In this document: positions 22,988 to 61,767 of the stretch, one piece after another
Numbering within the stretch: the stretch's first letter is position 1
Layout of the letters: each line of letters opens with the position of its first letter
Assembly: GCF_053078305.1 (NCBI RefSeq)
Contig: NZ_CP166879.1
DNA length: 64,000 bases
Direction: 5' to 3' (one strand)
Notes under the pieces: model-generated
The model's input: only the letters and a program-made list of their open reading frames with translations
What the model was told of the DNA's origin: nothing
Database searches by the model: none
Translations under genes and position numbers: made by a program

Positions 22988-23887
22988 CTAAACAGCACCT
23001 TTATACTTCAGCCTATCTATAAATAATGAGAATGCCGAGCCAGCATGTCGACGGTGTGGATAGTACAGGTGATAACCGGGTAAATCTGGTGTGAATTTAT
23101 CCAAAACACGTATCAGTTTTTTTTCTTTAATAGCCCGCTCAACCTGATCATAAGGTAGATACGCCAATCCATGCCCATCAATTGCAGCATCAATGATCAG
23201 GTCTATCGTATTCAGTAAAAGCTGACCTTCCATGCGAACACGAACTTCACGTCCACCGCGTATTAATCTCCAGCGATTTGCTGTACCCGATGTGGGAAGA
23301 TACAAATTAACTGCCTGATGATCTATTAATTGTGACACTGACGTTGGAACACTTCGGCGGGAAAAATAATCCGGTGAGCCAACAATAGCCATTGGTATAT
23401 CTGGCCCGATTCGAATGGCGATCATATCTTTATCCATCTCCCCACCCAGACGGACGCCTGCATCAAAACGCTCAGAAACGACATCAGTCAAACCATAATC
23501 AATGATAAGCTGAATATCAATTTCAGGGTGTGATTTCAGGAATGTGCGCATGGCTGGTAACAATATCGTTTTTGCTGCATGTTCTACAGTAGTAATACGT
23601 ATTGTCCCGGATGGGCGGTTCTGCAGATCGCTCAGGGATGCCAGGGCAGAATCTATGTCATGCAGCATAGGGCCAAGAACAGACAAAAGATGCTCGCCCG
23701 CTTCAGTAGGTACAACACTGCGCGTGGTTCGCGTCAGAAGCCGCAATCCCAATCGTTCTTCTATACGGCGCACTATCTGGCTTAATGCTGACTGCGCCAT
23801 GCTCAGGCGGGCTGCTGCGCGAGTGAAGCTACGCTCCTCTGCAACGACGACAAACGCCATCAGATCAGCGATCTCTTCACGCTTCAT
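22988..23887 (-). CDS. pgrR: LysR-family regulator PgrR (YcjZ), 299 aa
   Basis: LysR HTH (FTRAAARLSMAQSALSQIVRRIE). Divergent from ycjY. Confidence 0.85.
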   Translation of the reverse strand: MKREEIADLMAFVVVAEERSFTRAAARLSMAQSALSQIVRRIEERLGLRLLTRTTRSVVPTEAGEHLLSVLGPMLHDIDSALASLSDLQNRPSGTIRITTVEHAAKTILLPAMRTFLKSHPEIDIQLIIDYGLTDVVSERFDAGVRLGGEMDKDMIAIRIGPDIPMAIVGSPDYFSRRSVPTSVSQLIDHQAVNLYLPTSGTANRWRLIRGGREVRVRMEGQLLLNTIDLIIDAAIDGHGLAYLPYDQVERAIKEKKLIRVLDKFTPDLPGYHLYYPHRRHAGSAFSLFIDRLKYKGAV

Positions 23888-23926: not shown

Positions 23927-24024
23927 GGTCTAATCATGATTTTGGGTCTAATCAACTTAATGATCAATATCTATAGTGATATAACCAACCGTTAAAACGA
24001 ACCAACAACTCCATGAGGAACGGA

Positions 24025-24945
24025 ATGATGAATAATAAAGTCAGCTTCACTAACAGCAATAATCCAACCATCTCTTTGTCTGCAGTGATCTATTTTCCTC
24101 CAAAATTTGATGAAACCCGTCAATATCCGGCAATTGTGGTATCTCACCCAGGTGGGGGCGTTAAAGAACAAACGGCCGGAACTTATGCCGAAAAACTGGC
24201 GGAAAAGGGATTTGTCACTATTGCTTATGACGCATCTTATCAAGGTGAAAGTGGCGGCGAGCCGCGTCAGTTAGAAAACCCATACATTCGTACTGAAGAC
24301 ATCAGTGCCGTGATTGATTACCTGACAACGCTTTCTTATGTCGACAATACCCGAATTGGTGCGATGGGAATTTGTGCCGGTGCAGGATATACAGCCAATG
24401 CTGCAATTCAGGATCGCCGCATCAAGGCCATCGGTACCGTTAGTGCGGTCAATATTGGTTCGATGTTCCGTAATGGTTGGGAAAACAATGTGAAATCTAT
24501 TGATGCCCTGCCATACGTTGAAGCGGGTTCAAACGCCAGAACCAGCGATATTAGCAGCGGAGAATACGCCATTATGCCACTGGCACCAATGAAGGAGTCC
24601 GATGCGCCGAACGAAGAACTGCGTCAGGCCTGGGAGTATTACCACACCCCTCGCGCGCAGTATCCAACAGCACCGGGTTACGCTACTTTGCGCAGCCTTA
24701 ACCAGATTATTACCTATGATGCTTACCATATGGCGGAAGTGTACCTGACTCAGCCGACGCAGATTGTGGCGGGCAGCCAGGCAGGGAGCAAATGGATGAG
24801 TGACGACCTGTACGATCGGGCATCAAGCCAGGATAAACGCTATCACATTGTTGAAGGCGCAAACCATATGGATCTTTATGACGGCAAAGCCTATGTGGCT
24901 GAAGCAATTTCAGTATTAGCTCCGTTCTTTGAGGAAACTCTGTAA
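24025..24945 (+). CDS. ycjY: Alpha/beta hydrolase, dienelactone-hydrolase-like with a Cys nucleophile elbow, 306 aa
   Basis: G-x-C-x-G nucleophile motif (GICAGAG). Start at MMNNK with GAGGA upstream. The stop overlaps the next gene start. Confidence 0.8.
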   Translation: MMNNKVSFTNSNNPTISLSAVIYFPPKFDETRQYPAIVVSHPGGGVKEQTAGTYAEKLAEKGFVTIAYDASYQGESGGEPRQLENPYIRTEDISAVIDYLTTLSYVDNTRIGAMGICAGAGYTANAAIQDRRIKAIGTVSAVNIGSMFRNGWENNVKSIDALPYVEAGSNARTSDISSGEYAIMPLAPMKESDAPNEELRQAWEYYHTPRAQYPTAPGYATLRSLNQIITYDAYHMAEVYLTQPTQIVAGSQAGSKWMSDDLYDRASSQDKRYHIVEGANHMDLYDGKAYVAEAISVLAPFFEETL

Positions 24946-25874
24946 TGAAACATATTCAAATCCGCAATAGTGATATGGCCTGGCATATTGCTGCCAATAT
25001 TCAGTTTCCACCAAATTTTGATGAGTCAAAACAGTATCCGGCGATTATCAGCGTCCATCCTTTTGGCAGTTGTAAGGAGCAGACGTCTGGCAATATCTAT
25101 GGCAAGGCATTGGCTGAAAAAGGCTATGTCGTTCTCGCTTATGACGCCAGTTTCCAGGGAGAATCTGGTGGGGAGCCTCGTTGGATAGAAGATCCGACAC
25201 AGCGCGTAGAGGATATTAGCCGTGTTATCGATTATGCAGTAACTCTGCCATATGTTGATGCTGAACGCATTGGCGTGCTGGGTGTGTGTGGGGGGGGTGG
25301 CTATGCCATTAATGCCGCGCTGACAGAAAAACGAATTAAAGCTGTAGTGAGTATTACGGGTGTTAATATCGGGCGTCTTTTTCGGGAAGGTTTCAGCAAT
25401 TACGATCCGATTGGCGCATTGAATGCAATGGCGTCGCAACGAACCAAAGAGGCTCGTGGTGGAGAATTACAGATCAACGAATTACTTCCCGCCAGCCTGG
25501 ATGCAGCAAAAGCCCATGGACTGACCGAACGCGATGTTTATGAAGCAACTGACTACTATAAAACACCACGCGGGCAACAACCGGGAGGTGCGACAAAAAT
25601 GTTGTTCTCACATGCACAGAAAACGCTGGCCTGGGATGCCTTCGCATTTACTGAAGTGTTACTGACTCAGCCGGTGATGGTAGTAGTTGGTGAAAAAGTC
25701 GGTGCCTTCGGTGCTTATCGTGATGGACTGGAAGTCTATGGCCGGGCGATGGTTTCGCAGGATCGTCAGTTAGTTTCATTACCCGATTTCTCACATTATG
25801 AACTGTATGACAAACCGGAAGCAGTTCAGGAGGCGCTGGAAAAAGTTATTCCTTTTTTCAACACCCATCTGTGA
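24945..25874 (+). CDS. Second, tandem alpha/beta hydrolase paralogous to ycjY, 309 aa, intact
   Basis: Alignable with YcjY over its whole length (shared blocks AYDASxQGESGGEPR, EDISxVIDY, RIKA). Nucleophile motif GVCGGGG. Translationally coupled via TAATG. May correspond to the locus annotated as a remnant (ymjD) in K-12, from memory. Confidence 0.75.
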   Translation: MKHIQIRNSDMAWHIAANIQFPPNFDESKQYPAIISVHPFGSCKEQTSGNIYGKALAEKGYVVLAYDASFQGESGGEPRWIEDPTQRVEDISRVIDYAVTLPYVDAERIGVLGVCGGGGYAINAALTEKRIKAVVSITGVNIGRLFREGFSNYDPIGALNAMASQRTKEARGGELQINELLPASLDAAKAHGLTERDVYEATDYYKTPRGQQPGGATKMLFSHAQKTLAWDAFAFTEVLLTQPVMVVVGEKVGAFGAYRDGLEVYGRAMVSQDRQLVSLPDFSHYELYDKPEAVQEALEKVIPFFNTHL

Positions 25875-25894
25875 TAAGTTTCATGAGAAATATT

Positions 25895-26532
25895 ATGAAA
25901 AATGTACTCATTCTTGGTGCTGGCGGTCAGATAGCCCGCCATGTGATTAATCAACTGGCAGATAAACAAACCATTAAACAAACTTTATTTGCTCGTCAGC
26001 CAGCAAAAATACACAAACCCTATCCAACTAATAGCCAGATTATTATGGGGGATGTACTGAATCATGCAGCACTGAAGCAGGCCATGCAGGGACAGGATAT
26101 TGTGTATGCCAACCTTACGGGGGAAGATTTAGATATTCAGGCAAATTCAGTGATCGCTGCGATGAAAGCCTGTGATGTTAAACGTCTGATCTTTGTTCTT
26201 TCCCTCGGCATTTATGATGAAGTTCCAGGAAAATTTGGCGAATGGAATAATGCAGTTATTGGTGAGCCCCTAAACCATTCCGCAGGGCTGCGGATGCAAT
26301 TGAGGCTTCTGGACTGGAATATACAATTCTTCGCCCTGCCTGGCTGACGGATGAAGATATTATTGATTATGAGCTTACCTCACGCAATGAACCATTCAAA
26401 GGTACGATCGTATCACGTAAGAGTGTCGCAGCATTAATTACAGATATCATCGATAAACCTGAGAAACACATTGGTGAGAATATAGGCATCAATCAACCCG
26501 GGACTGATGGCGACAAGCCATTCTTCATGTAA
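25895..26532 (+). pseudogene. ymjC: NAD(P)-binding NmrA/SDR-like protein interrupted by a frameshift (ymjC-like)
   Basis: Rossmann motif ILGAGGQIARH. The frame runs to a stop at 26347, but a different frame continues as ...KPFRRAADAIEASGLEYTILRPAWLTDEDIIDYELT... to 26532. The shift maps to about 26265-26276 (gagcccctaaacc). Start codon uncertain (25883 or 25895). Confidence 0.55.
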
Positions 26533-26822
26533 ATCAATTATATAGCCACCATCGTACTGTACTATGTGCAGTACGATTTATTAAACTTATTAAGGTGAAC
26601 TGATCAATCAGATGCGATTAACATGTGTAGAACCAGTAAGAATAAAATACGCCATGTATATAACATTACGACAATTCTAATATCTGCACATCAATAAAAA
26701 TACAAACAACTTCCGGCAAAAAAGTGATACAAGATCGATGACATAGCGTTGAAGAAAAGGATTTGATAATCCGCAAAATTTGCACAACACTGCCTGTAAT
26801 ACTTCCTGAACCAGAGACGATC

Positions 26823-60123: not shown

Positions 60124-61767
60124 ATGCGCCAGGTATTATCGTCTCTTTTGGTGATTGCTGGACTTGTGAGTGGTCAGGCAATCGCCGCGCCTGAATCCCC
60201 CCCGCATGCTGATATCCGCGACAGCGGTTTTGTCTATTGCGTCAGCGGGCAAGTCAACACCTTTAACCCATCCAAAGCGAGCAGTGGGTTAATTGTCGAT
60301 ACCCTTGCCGCCCAGTTTTATGATCGACTGCTGGATGTCGATCCCTATACCTATCGCCTGATGCCAGAACTTGCCGAAAGCTGGGAAGTACTCGACAACG
60401 GCGCGACCTATCGCTTCCACCTGCGTCGCGATGTCCCGTTTCAAAAAACCGCCTGGTTTACTCCCACTCGCAAAATGAATGCCGACGATGTGGTGTTTAC
60501 CTTCCAGCGAATTTTTGACCGCAACAACCCGTGGCATAACGTCAACGGCAGCAACTTCCCCTACTTCGACAGCCTGCAATTTGCCGATAACGTGAAAAGC
60601 GTCCGTAAACTGGATAATCATACCGTTGAGTTCCGTCTGGCTCAGCCGGATGCTTCTTTTTTGTGGCACCTCGCAACCCATTATGCTTCGGTCATGTCGG
60701 CAGAATATGCCCGGAAGTTAGAGAAAGAAGATCGCCAGGAGCAACTCGACCGTCAACCGGTCGGCACTGGACCGTATCAGTTGTCGGAATACCGCGCCGG
60801 GCAATTTATTCGCCTACAACGTCATGATGACTTCTGGCGCGGTAAACCGTTAATGCCGCAGGTGGTGGTGGATTTAGGCTCCGGCGGCACCGGACGTCTG
60901 TCGAAACTCCTGACCGGGGAATGCGACGTTCTGGCCTGGCCTGCTGCCAGCCAGCTATCCATTTTGCGTGACGACCCGCGCTTGCGTTTAACGCTGCGTC
61001 CTGGGATGAACGTCGCCTATCTGGCATTTAACACCGCCAAACCGCCACTAAATAATCCCGCTGTCCGCCATGCACTTGCACTGGCGATTAATAACCAGCG
61101 CCTGATGCAATCCATCTATTATGGTACGGCTGAAACGGCGGCCTCTATTTTACCGCGCGCCTCGTGGGCCTATGACAACGAGGCTAAAATTACTGAATAC
61201 AATCCGGCGAAATCGCGCGAACAGTTGAAGTCGTTGGGGCTGGAAAATTTAACGCTGAAACTGTGGGTGCCCACACGTTCGCAGGCGTGGAACCCCAGTC
61301 CACTGAAAACTGCCGAACTGATTCAGGCGGATATGGCGCAGGTTGGCGTAAAAGTGGTGATTGTGCCGGTAGAAGGTCGCTTTCAGGAGGCGCGGTTGAT
61401 GGATATGAGCCATGATCTGACGTTATCCGGTTGGGCGACGGACAGTAACGACCCGGACAGTTTCTTCCGTCCGTTACTGAGCTGCGCGGCAATTCATTCA
61501 CAGACCAACCTCGCCCACTGGTGCGATCCGAAATTCGACAGCGTGTTGCGTAAGGCGCTCTCCTCGCAGCAGCTGGCGGCGCGTATTGAAGCCTATGACG
61601 AAGCGCAGAGTATTCTGGCGCAGGAATTGCCCATTTTGCCGCTGGCGTCGTCATTGCGTTTGCAGGCCTATCGGTACGATATCAAAGGTCTGGTACTTAG
61701 CCCGTTTGGTAACGCCTCCTTTGCTGGGGTGTATCGCGAGAAACAGGATGAGGTGAAAAAACCATGA
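60124..61767 (+). CDS. sapA: Periplasmic peptide-binding protein SapA (SBP family 5), 547 aa
   Basis: Signal peptide followed by a DppA/OppA-like fold. Confidence 0.9.

What the first reader, a model, noticed from the sequence alone, without database searches (positions are those of the whole stretch)
25281..25297. (GT)4-G8 homopolymeric tract encoding the catalytic nucleophile motif of the second hydrolase
The codons for V-C-G-G-G-G sit on gtgtgtgtg followed by eight consecutive G residues (25290-25297). A tract like this is prone to slipped-strand mispairing, and a +1/-1 change would truncate the enzyme at its active site. This could explain why the gene is a remnant in some strains, and it is a spot where sequencing or assembly errors are likely.
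Basis: partly seen in the sequence, partly recalled or inferred. Interest (0 to 1): 0.4.

Follow-up and report, generated by a model that had tools for sequence, protein, structure and literature searches.

The report
Slippery poly-G tract in hydrolase gene
A run of eight G's inside an E. coli enzyme gene, created by one silent mutation, changes length from strain to strain (6 to 16 G's) and has broken the gene in most O157:H7-type strains, so it is a real mutation hot spot of a well-known kind.

Summary
(GT)4 lies at 25282-25289 and G8 at 25290-25297, encoding G-V-C115-G-G-G-G of the second YcjY-like hydrolase (24945-25874).

Among 5,426 complete E. coli genomes:
- About 873 carry an interrupted, stable version (GGG GGT GGT).
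- About 365 carry the uninterrupted tract: G7 (2), G8 (69), G9 (212, including Sakai and EDL933), G10 (73), G11 (6), G12 (3). One further genome has G13 and one has G15.
- G9, G10 and G12 are annotated as frameshifted.

The exact predicted products of G6 to G16 all occur in public assemblies, in a smooth single-peaked distribution. The interrupted allele shows almost no indels there (15 against at least 1,000).

Most likely one silent T-to-G change made a slippage-prone tract in a dispensable gene, which then decayed neutrally.

The K-12-type remnant is a different event. It comes from two deletions, the nearest ending 283 nt upstream of the tract.

Side finding: the IS110-family element ISEc20 sits inside this tract in 10 genomes, and at eight independent sites it is always flanked by G-runs.

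This is a new member of a known kind, of moderate interest.

The parts
25290..25297 (+). G8 homopolymer. It covers codons Gly116, Gly117 and the first two bases of Gly118. This is the length-variable tract.
   Evidence: length variants
25282..25289 (+). (GT)4 dinucleotide repeat. It covers the last two bases of Gly113, Val114 and Cys115. It is nearly invariant: one genome has (GT)5, and one has lost its last T by a T-to-G change.
25287..25289 (+). TGT codon of Cys115, the predicted nucleophile in G113-V-C115-G-G117.
24945..25874 (+). Second YcjY-like (dienelactone-hydrolase-like) alpha/beta hydrolase, 309 aa and in frame in this window. Its start overlaps the stop of ycjY (TAATG).
24013..24945 (+). 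ycjY, the first hydrolase paralogue (43% identical). Its motif GICAGAG is encoded without any homopolymer.
22988..23887 (-). pgrR (ycjZ), a divergent LysR regulator of the ycjY operon. It contains an A8/T8 run (23117-23124) that was used as a control.
25895..26347 (+). NmrA-like SDR (full-length ymjC homologue). It is truncated in this window to 150 aa by a 1-nt deletion (A4 to A3 at 26272-26274).
25000..25888 (.). Segment missing in K-12-type genomes (first deletion). It removes the hydrolase from nucleotide 56 onward, tract included.
26034..26692 (.). Segment missing in K-12-type genomes (second deletion). It removes most of the SDR gene.

Best explanation
The tract is a real hot spot for slipped-strand mispairing. 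It was created by a silent mutation in a dispensable gene.

1. The enzyme needs the motif C-G-G-G-G-Y. Most E. coli that keep the gene encode it as TGT GGG GGT GGT GGC, a G5 run. Klebsiella and Serratia use GGC/GGT codons with no run at all.
2. In one allele lineage, a synonymous GGT-to-GGG change fused G5 and G2 into G8. This lineage includes this window's strain, assorted commensal strains, O145:H28, O55:H7, O157:H7 and Shigella flexneri. A second silent change, GGA to GGT, lengthened the GT repeat.
3. G8 keeps the frame. The tract then gains and loses G's during replication. G9 and G10 predominate in the O55:H7/O157:H7 lineage and truncate the protein 7 to 11 residues after the catalytic Cys. 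G11 and G14 restore the frame but add glycines to a motif of otherwise fixed length.
4. The length distribution is smooth and shows no preference for in-frame lengths. About three quarters of E. coli have lost the gene by deletion anyway. The variation therefore looks like neutral decay and drift, not a selected switch.

Shown: the length polymorphism, its dependence on tract continuity, and the frame consequences. Inferred: replication slippage as the mechanism, and neutrality.
For: - Counts in 5,426 complete genomes, using exact-variant queries with identical flanks: G7 2, G8 69, G9 212, G10 73, G11 6, G12 3, and about 873 interrupted. Each count in the >=99% identity band was reduced by the 10 IS-split genomes, whose partial matches fall in that band.
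- Variants with altered flanks: (GT)5+G13 and (GT)3+G15.
- Exact predicted products in the 15-billion-protein collection, as contigs carrying each: G5 0, G6 16, G7 135, G8 937, G9 >=1000, G10 >=1000, G11 797, G12 363, G13 74, G14 40, G15 2, G16 1, G17 0.
- Control in the same gene and position, on the interrupted allele: G5 >=1000 contigs against G4 14 and G6 1. Control on the pgrR A8 run: 559 against A7 16 and A9 0.
- Reproducibility across records:
  - EDL933's protein Z2444 is the 122-aa G9 product, and the CP008957 assembly is also G9.
  - Sakai's UniProt entry A0A0H3JEM4 is the G9 product, and NC_002695.2 is also G9.
  - Three 86-24 assemblies are all G9.
  - Twenty-three cattle isolates (numbered 113-141) with near-identical chromosome lengths are all G10, as is strain 150.
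- Frame effects and the 'frameshifted' or pseudogene annotation.
- Codon comparison with Klebsiella and Serratia.
- Motif conservation: 115 of 120 nearest homologue clusters have exactly C-GGGG, and none has five glycines.
- Dispensability: only 1,271 of 5,426 genomes keep at least 80% of the gene.
Against: - No raw reads were examined. Long G-runs are also where sequencers err.
- Some near-identical genomes differ by one G. O145 RM9872 is G9 against G8 in RM9873-C1 and RM9467-C1. The PNUSAE cluster is G10 against G11 in 2024CK-1897675. These could be real switching or consensus error.
- Genomes are phylogenetically non-independent, so the low in-frame share (75 of 365) is not a formal test of neutrality.
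- Switching rates were not measured.
Confidence: 0.78

Rival explanations
1. The tract is an adaptive contingency locus. It would be a selected, reversible ON/OFF switch for the PgrR-regulated hydrolase and, through polarity, perhaps for the downstream SDR and mpaA genes. That would let O157-type populations hedge between states.
For: - The anatomy matches classic phase-variable genes: a poly-G inside the coding sequence whose length toggles the frame.
- Both ON lengths (G8, G11, G14) and OFF lengths circulate.
- Some apparent within-clone changes exist.
- The gene sits inside the PgrR-controlled ycjY-...-mpaA operon.
- YcjY was picked once as a machine-learning feature for O157 clinical outcome.
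Against: - There is no three-base periodicity and no excess of in-frame lengths. G11 is rarer than G10, and G14 is rarer than G13. In complete genomes 79% are out of frame.
- The product looks like a cytoplasmic hydrolase, not a surface or restriction-modification function.
- The gene is deleted in most E. coli.
- G11 and G14 add glycines to a motif that never has five in homologues.
- Reference strains keep G9 through laboratory passage and re-sequencing.
Confidence: 0.12
2. The length variation is mostly a sequencing or assembly artefact at a hard-to-read homopolymer. The biological tract would then be essentially fixed.
For: - Homopolymers of 8 or more are known error sites.
- A few near-identical genomes differ by a single G.
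- The tools used here do not report sequencing platform or read support.
Against: - The modal state, G9, is found in independent records of the same strains: EDL933 (Z2444 and CP008957), Sakai, and three 86-24 assemblies.
- 23 near-identical cattle isolates all give G10.
- Lengths range from G6 to G16 across thousands of contigs.
- An 8-nt A-run 2 kb away shows at most 3% variants in the same collection.
- An IS element splits the tract into G6 + G6, which requires a tract longer than G8.
Confidence: 0.06
3. Out-of-frame strains still make some full-length enzyme, because RNA polymerase or the ribosome slips on the G9/G10 run. On this view the 'pseudogene' is only leaky, not dead.
For: - Transcriptional slippage on long homopolymers is established in bacteria. 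This rests on my own knowledge (for example Baranov et al. 2005; Tamas et al. 2008) and was not tested here.
- The downstream reading frame remains intact in G9/G10 strains. Their sequence is otherwise 99.8-99.9% identical to the in-frame allele.
Against: - Known efficient slippage involves A/T runs. G/C runs form stable hybrids and slip less (own knowledge).
- No expression data were available.
- Intactness of the downstream frame is also expected if the frameshift is simply recent.
Confidence: 0.04

Closest known systems
Phase-variable homopolymeric tracts of contingency loci, for example poly-G in Neisseria gonorrhoeae pgtA (PMC2193922), Neisseria meningitidis repeats (PMC5084427) and the 7C tract of M. 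tuberculosis glpK (bioRxiv 10.1101/717272)
   Same: A mononucleotide G/C run lies inside a coding sequence. Gains and losses of one base toggle the reading frame. Length is polymorphic among close relatives.
   Different: E. coli is mismatch-repair proficient. The gene encodes a probable cytoplasmic hydrolase. The OFF state is the mode. There is no sign of selection for in-frame lengths. No switching rate or phenotype is known.
Homopolymeric tracts in Escherichia genomes, genome-wide survey (PMC8928963)
   Same: That survey reports that longer homopolymers are enriched in pseudogenes and in pathogenic lineages such as O157.
   Different: It does not mention this locus or hydrolase. It gives no per-locus length distribution and no comparison between interrupted and uninterrupted alleles.
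E. coli K-12 ymjD/ymjC remnants between ycjY and mpaA
   Same: They occupy the same chromosomal position and derive from the same two ancestral genes (hydrolase 2 and the SDR).
   Different: The K-12 state arose by two deletions (window 25000-25888 and 26034-26692). It keeps only the first 55 nt of the hydrolase. The tract is not involved.
YcjY (PDB 5xb6) and PA2218 (PDB 2hdw), dienelactone-hydrolase-like alpha/beta hydrolases
   Same: E-values are 1e-68 and 5e-41. The G-x-C-x-G elbow and the C-terminal S/N-H-x-[DE]-L-Y-D motif are shared.
   Different: YcjY has C-A-G-A-G and PA2218 has C-G-W-G-G, so neither can carry a G-run. The substrate of all three is unknown.
Site-specific IS110-family insertion sequences, for example IS621, which targets repeated sequences through a bridge RNA (own knowledge, not tested here)
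   Same: ISEc20 is annotated as IS110-like. At 8 of 8 insertion sites examined it sits in the same kind of sequence, and no target duplication was detected.
   Different: The apparent target is a long pure G-run, not a REP-like repeat. The library searched holds no paper describing ISEc20's target.

Membership tests
Slippage-prone simple sequence repeat (mutational hot spot) | Uninterrupted mononucleotide run of about 8 or more | tested here: met
   G8 at 25290-25297.
Slippage-prone simple sequence repeat (mutational hot spot) | Repeat number differs among closely related genomes while the flanks stay identical | tested here: met
   G7 to G12 with identical 46- and 38-nt flanks in complete genomes. 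Products of G6 to G16 occur in public assemblies.
Slippage-prone simple sequence repeat (mutational hot spot) | Variation depends on repeat continuity, so an interrupted version is stable | tested here: met
   On the interrupted allele, the intact product is on >=1000 contigs and the two frameshift products on 15. At most 5 of about 873 complete genomes with that allele show any extra difference.
Phase-variable contingency locus | Length changes switch the reading frame ON and OFF | tested here: met
   G8, G11 and G14 are in frame. G9, G10, G12 and G13 stop at codons 122-127. The RefSeq annotation reads 'frameshifted'.
Phase-variable contingency locus | High-frequency, reversible switching within a clonal population | not testable with these tools
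   Only indirect hints exist: near-identical genomes that differ by one G. Reference strains are stable across re-sequencing.
Phase-variable contingency locus | Evidence that switching is selected, such as an excess of in-frame lengths or a phenotype | tested here: not met
   The distribution is smooth and single-peaked with no three-base periodicity. Only 21% of complete genomes with the tract are in frame. No phenotype is known.
Dienelactone-hydrolase-like alpha/beta hydrolase with a Cys nucleophile (YcjY/PA2218 group) | Alpha/beta-hydrolase sequence signature | tested here: met
   Pfam DLH, Peptidase_S15, Abhydrolase_1 and Hydrolase_4 all score above their cut-offs. PDB 5xb6 matches at 1e-68.
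Dienelactone-hydrolase-like alpha/beta hydrolase with a Cys nucleophile (YcjY/PA2218 group) | Nucleophile elbow G-x-Nuc-x-G with Cys, plus a conserved His and acid residue | tested here: inconclusive
   G113-V-C115-G-G117 aligns with G-x-S-x-G of 8b4u. C115, H284, D260 and D289 are invariant across both paralogues. The triad was assigned from sequence only. No structure model or activity test was made.
IS110-family site-specific insertion (side finding) | Same target sequence at independent insertion sites | tested here: met
   At 8 of 8 sites, at least G6 lies to the left and at least G4 to the right of the 1,449-nt element. At the phage terL site, the occupied sequence equals the empty G10 allele plus the element exactly.

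The most novel reading that the evidence does not exclude
One silent T-to-G change turned a stable string of glycine codons into a newly born hypermutable element with two behaviours.

1. It switches a PgrR-operon hydrolase ON and OFF in the O157:H7, O55:H7 and O145:H28 lineages. Through polarity it may also affect the downstream SDR and mpaA genes.
2. Once it has grown to about G10-G12, it becomes the specific landing site of the IS110-family element ISEc20. That element's natural target would then be poly-G.

The same 'healing' of interrupted G-runs by T-to-G changes, followed by ISEc20 insertion, is seen at unrelated phage loci.
Probability: 0.25. Interest if true: 0.65.

Novelty: new member of a known kind. 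Interest (0 to 1): 0.45.

Why it matters
- **Practical use.** This is a site where O157:H7-type genomes differ for reasons that carry little phylogenetic signal. It can create spurious allele or indel differences in outbreak typing. It also explains why the gene is called intact in some strains, 'frameshifted' in others, and split into two ORFs elsewhere (Z2444, ECs_1907).
- **Concept.** It is a clean natural experiment. The same gene, position and protein motif exist with and without one synonymous change, and the frameshift burden goes from about 1% to about 80%. This shows how codon choice sets mutational robustness.
- **Side finding.** If ISEc20 does target poly-G, that would give a natural target rule for an IS110-family recombinase.

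Tried and rejected
- **Literature searches.** Searches for ECs1907, ECs1908, Z2444, Z2445, ymjD, YcjY and O157 homopolymer terms found no paper on this tract. One search failed on term syntax.
- **sapA control.** The C7 run in sapA (60197-60203) was dropped as a control. Frameshifts there give products of 29 to 55 aa that gene callers would not report.
- **Window identity.** I first took the window to be O157-like because FORC_044 is 100% identical over the gene. That is wrong. Over 25244-26560 the closest complete genomes are the non-O157 strains PS10-3, TB06051 and CM196106.
- **Window G8 as an assembly slip.** Rejected. The three nearest relatives share G8, and the exact 309-aa product is on 937 contigs. 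The window's other indel, A4 to A3 in the SDR gene, also recurs on 16 contigs, so it is a real lineage marker.
- **ISEc20 boundaries.** I tested the idea that the T at the left junction belongs to the target, giving a target of G6-T-G2-3. It fits one phage site but fails at the terL site and needs an unobserved hydrolase allele. The pure-G-run target fits better.
- **Empty-site scan.** One scan for an empty insertion site found nothing.
- **G13.** No exact G13 with unchanged flanks exists among complete genomes.
- **Unresolved genomes.** About 26 genomes with the region were not resolved into a length class.

Full report
**1. The observation**

The window reads GGGTGTGTGTGGGGGGGGTGGC at 25280-25301. 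(GT)4 lies at 25282-25289 and G8 at 25290-25297. The ORF 24945-25874 (309 aa) reads GGT GTG TGT GGG GGG GGT GGC = G113-V-C115-G-G-G-G. This is the only G or C run of 8 or more in the window. Dinucleotide shuffles give one such run on average, so its mere presence is not remarkable.

**2. The gene and its setting**

The locus is, in order:
- mppA
- pgrR (22988-23887, minus strand)
- ycjY (24013-24945)
- the second hydrolase
- an NmrA-like SDR
- mpaA
- ycjG

The hydrolase matches Pfam DLH, Peptidase_S15 and Abhydrolase. It matches solved YcjY (5xb6, E 1e-68) and PA2218 (2hdw, E 5e-41).

C115 aligns with the serine of G-x-S-x-G in 8b4u. C115, H284, D260 and D289 are invariant across both paralogues.

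The module of LysR regulator, two hydrolases and SDR is conserved in Klebsiella and Serratia. In K-12 the operon is listed as PgrR-regulated (PMC5934670).

**3. Does the tract vary?**

Of 5,426 complete E. coli genomes, 1,271 keep at least 80% of the gene and 1,272 hold the 92-nt region around the tract. Ten more have that region split (section 8).

I searched with exact queries that differed only in G number. Each count in the >=99% identity band was reduced by the 10 split genomes, whose partial matches always score 100%.

| Tract | Complete genomes | Notes |
|---|---|---|
| G7 | 2 | both non-O157 |
| G8 | 69 | |
| G9 | 212 | |
| G10 | 73 | |
| G11 | 6 | |
| G12 | 3 | |
| exact G13 | 0 | |
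| (GT)5 + G13 | 1 | RMDEC465 |
| (GT)3 + G15 | 1 | O55:H7 DEC5B, by a T-to-G change in the Cys codon |
| G8 + one flank SNP | 6 | |
| unresolved | about 26 | |

About 873 genomes instead have TGT GGG GGT GGT GGC, always 92 nt long.

Strains by length:
- G9 includes Sakai, where ECs_1907 is annotated as a pseudogene. It also includes EDL933, TW14359, EC4115 and Xuzhou21.
- G10 includes FRIK944, 493/89 and two O55:H7 strains.
- G11 includes O55:H7 CB9615.
- G8 includes O145:H28 RM13514 and RM12581, a minority of O157:H7, and many non-STEC strains.

**4. Frame consequences**

G8 gives 309 aa. G9 stops at codon 122 and G10 at 126. G11 gives 310 aa with an extra Gly. G12 stops at 123 and G7 at 125. 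RefSeq flags the G9, G10, G13 and G15 genes examined as 'frameshifted'. It annotates the G11 gene as intact.

Among 120 nearest homologue clusters (77-99% identity, from Enterobacterales to alpha-proteobacteria), 115 have exactly C-GGGG and none has five glycines. The in-frame G11 and G14 products are therefore atypical. That they are impaired is an inference.

**5. Independent population view and controls**

The exact predicted product of each length was looked up in a collection of about 15 billion proteins. The table gives the number of contigs carrying each.

| Tract | Contigs |
|---|---|
| G5 | 0 |
| G6 | 16 |
| G7 | 135 |
| G8 | 937 |
| G9 | >=1000 (cap; includes EDL933 Z2444 and UniProt A0A0H3JEM4_ECO57) |
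| G11 | 797 |
| G12 | 363 |
| G13 | 74 |
| G14 | 40 |
| G15 | 2 |
| G16 | 1 |
| G17 | 0 |

The distribution is smooth, has a single peak, and shows no three-base periodicity.

Controls in the same collection:
- Interrupted allele: the intact product is on >=1000 contigs, the G4 product on 14 and the G6 product on 1.
- pgrR A8 run: intact on 559 contigs, A7 on 16, A9 on 0.

**6. Real or artefact?**

Both errors and real slippage concentrate on long homopolymers, and I had no reads. Several facts argue that the bulk of the variation is real and heritable:
- The same strain gives the same length in independent records. EDL933's Z2444 product and the CP008957 assembly are both G9. Both Sakai records are G9. 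Three 86-24 assemblies are G9.
- 23 cattle isolates with near-identical chromosome lengths all give G10.
- Different lineages have different modal lengths.
- An insertion sequence splits the tract into G6 + G6.

A few near-identical genomes differ by one G. O145 RM9872 is G9, while RM9873-C1 and RM9467-C1 are G8. A PNUSAE cluster is G10, while 2024CK-1897675 is G11. These may be recent switches or consensus errors.

The window's own G8 is credible. Its three closest complete relatives (PS10-3, TB06051, CM196106) share it.

**7. Origin**

Klebsiella and Serratia encode the same four glycines as GGC GGC GGT/GGC GGT. Most E. coli use GGG GGT GGT. The window's allele has GGG GGG GGT, plus GGT instead of GGA upstream. 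So one synonymous T-to-G change fused G5 and G2 into G8, and a second silent change lengthened the GT repeat. Taking the majority E. coli allele as ancestral is an inference; the Klebsiella and Serratia codons show only that no G-run is needed to encode the motif.

Further T-to-G changes at run boundaries occur in DEC5B and in product P0133.

**8. The 'remnant' question**

K-12-type genomes (about 3,950) keep only nucleotides 1-55 of the gene. Alignment shows two deletions, equivalent to window 25000-25888 and 26034-26692. The first junction lies 283 nt upstream of the tract. The tract therefore explains the O157-type pseudogene but not the K-12-type remnant.

A third route to inactivation is ISEc20 inserted inside the tract in 10 complete genomes:
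- six O145:H28 strains
- O55:H7 DEC5A and DEC5E
- FDAARGOS_944 and FDAARGOS_946

Its read-through product (...GVCGGCPY, 120 aa) is on 340 contigs, including Shigella flexneri.

**9. Mechanism and selection**

The best reading is replication slippage on a tract that crossed the instability threshold, in a gene under little or no selection.
- About 77% of complete genomes lack the gene.
- 79% of identical-flank, uninterrupted-tract genomes are out of frame.
- In-frame lengths are not enriched.

An adaptive phase-variation switch is not excluded but has no positive support. Polar effects on the SDR gene and mpaA, and slippage rescue of expression, are untested possibilities.

**10. Side finding on ISEc20**

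At eight independent insertion sites the 1,449-nt element is flanked by at least G6 on the left and at least G4 on the right. The sites are this gene, a cdiA-linked site, a prophage Q region, a phage terL gene and four IMG/VR contigs.

Empty alleles were recovered at three phage sites:

| Site | Occupied site | Empty alleles found (contigs) |
|---|---|---|
| terL | G6 + IS + G4 | GGGGGTGGT (111), two single-base variants (1 each), G9 (4), G10 (3) |
| second phage site | G6 + IS + G5 | G6-T-G3 (58), G10 (2) |
| third phage site | G6 + IS + G5 | GGGGTG (3), GGGGGG (1) |

At terL the occupied site equals G10 plus the element exactly. ISEc20 thus appears to land in long pure G-runs, which arise by 'healing' of interrupted runs. 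The common terL allele has the same G5-T-GG-T pattern as the stable hydrolase allele. The library searched holds no paper describing ISEc20's target.

**11. Verdict**

The finding belongs to a well-known class: a homopolymeric frameshift hot spot with the anatomy of a phase-variable gene. The pseudogene state is already annotated in reference genomes. I found no published description of the length polymorphism, its origin in a synonymous change, or the IS targeting. Interest is moderate.

Noticed in passing
window 25290-25297; L014 3053-4501; L017-L023: The IS110-family element ISEc20 (1,449 nt) is inserted inside this G tract, as G6|IS|G6, in 10 complete genomes: O145:H28, O55:H7 and two FDAARGOS strains. 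Its read-through product is on 340 contigs, including Shigella flexneri. At 8 of 8 independent insertion sites the element is flanked by at least G6 and at least G4, which suggests it targets long pure G-runs.
   Followed up: partly
L084-L160 (phage terL), L024-L083, L200-L203: At three unrelated phage loci, a common interrupted G-run coexists with rare pure G-run alleles of the same or nearly the same length. The interrupted forms are GGGGGTGGT, GGGGGGTGGG and GGGGTG. The pure forms are G9/G10, G10 and G6. T-to-G 'healing' of interrupted runs therefore recurs, and the terL motif is the same G5-T-GG-T as in the stable hydrolase allele.
   Followed up: partly
window 26272-26274: The SDR (ymjC-homologue) gene has a 1-nt deletion (A4 to A3). 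This truncates it to 150 aa instead of 212. No complete genome among the 5,426 shares the deletion, but the exact truncated product occurs on 16 contigs, so it marks a small lineage and is not an error.
   Followed up: yes
L016 (RMDEC465) 701-799; L015 (DEC5B) 701-797: The GT repeat can vary too. RMDEC465 has (GT)5 + G13. O55:H7 DEC5B has lost the Cys codon (TGT to TGG), giving (GT)3 + G15.
   Followed up: yes
L011, L012, L013 (Klebsiella variicola, Serratia marcescens): The cassette of LysR regulator, hydrolase 1, hydrolase 2 and NmrA-like SDR is conserved outside E. coli. There it is followed by short-chain dehydrogenases, a flavodoxin-like protein (Serratia only) and an old-yellow-enzyme reductase, not by mpaA/ycjG. 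Hydrolase 2 is 77-87% identical even in alpha-proteobacteria. This hints at horizontal spread and at a role other than murein-peptide recycling.
   Followed up: no
window 25872-25874 vs L004 1332-1334: The window's allele ends ...NTHL (309 aa), while the common interrupted allele ends ...NTHLG (310 aa). The two allele families also differ at the stop codon.
   Followed up: no
L018 1825-3672: Strain SMN197SH3 carries two ISEc20 copies in direct tandem, separated only by GGGG. This may mirror the element's circle junction.
   Followed up: no
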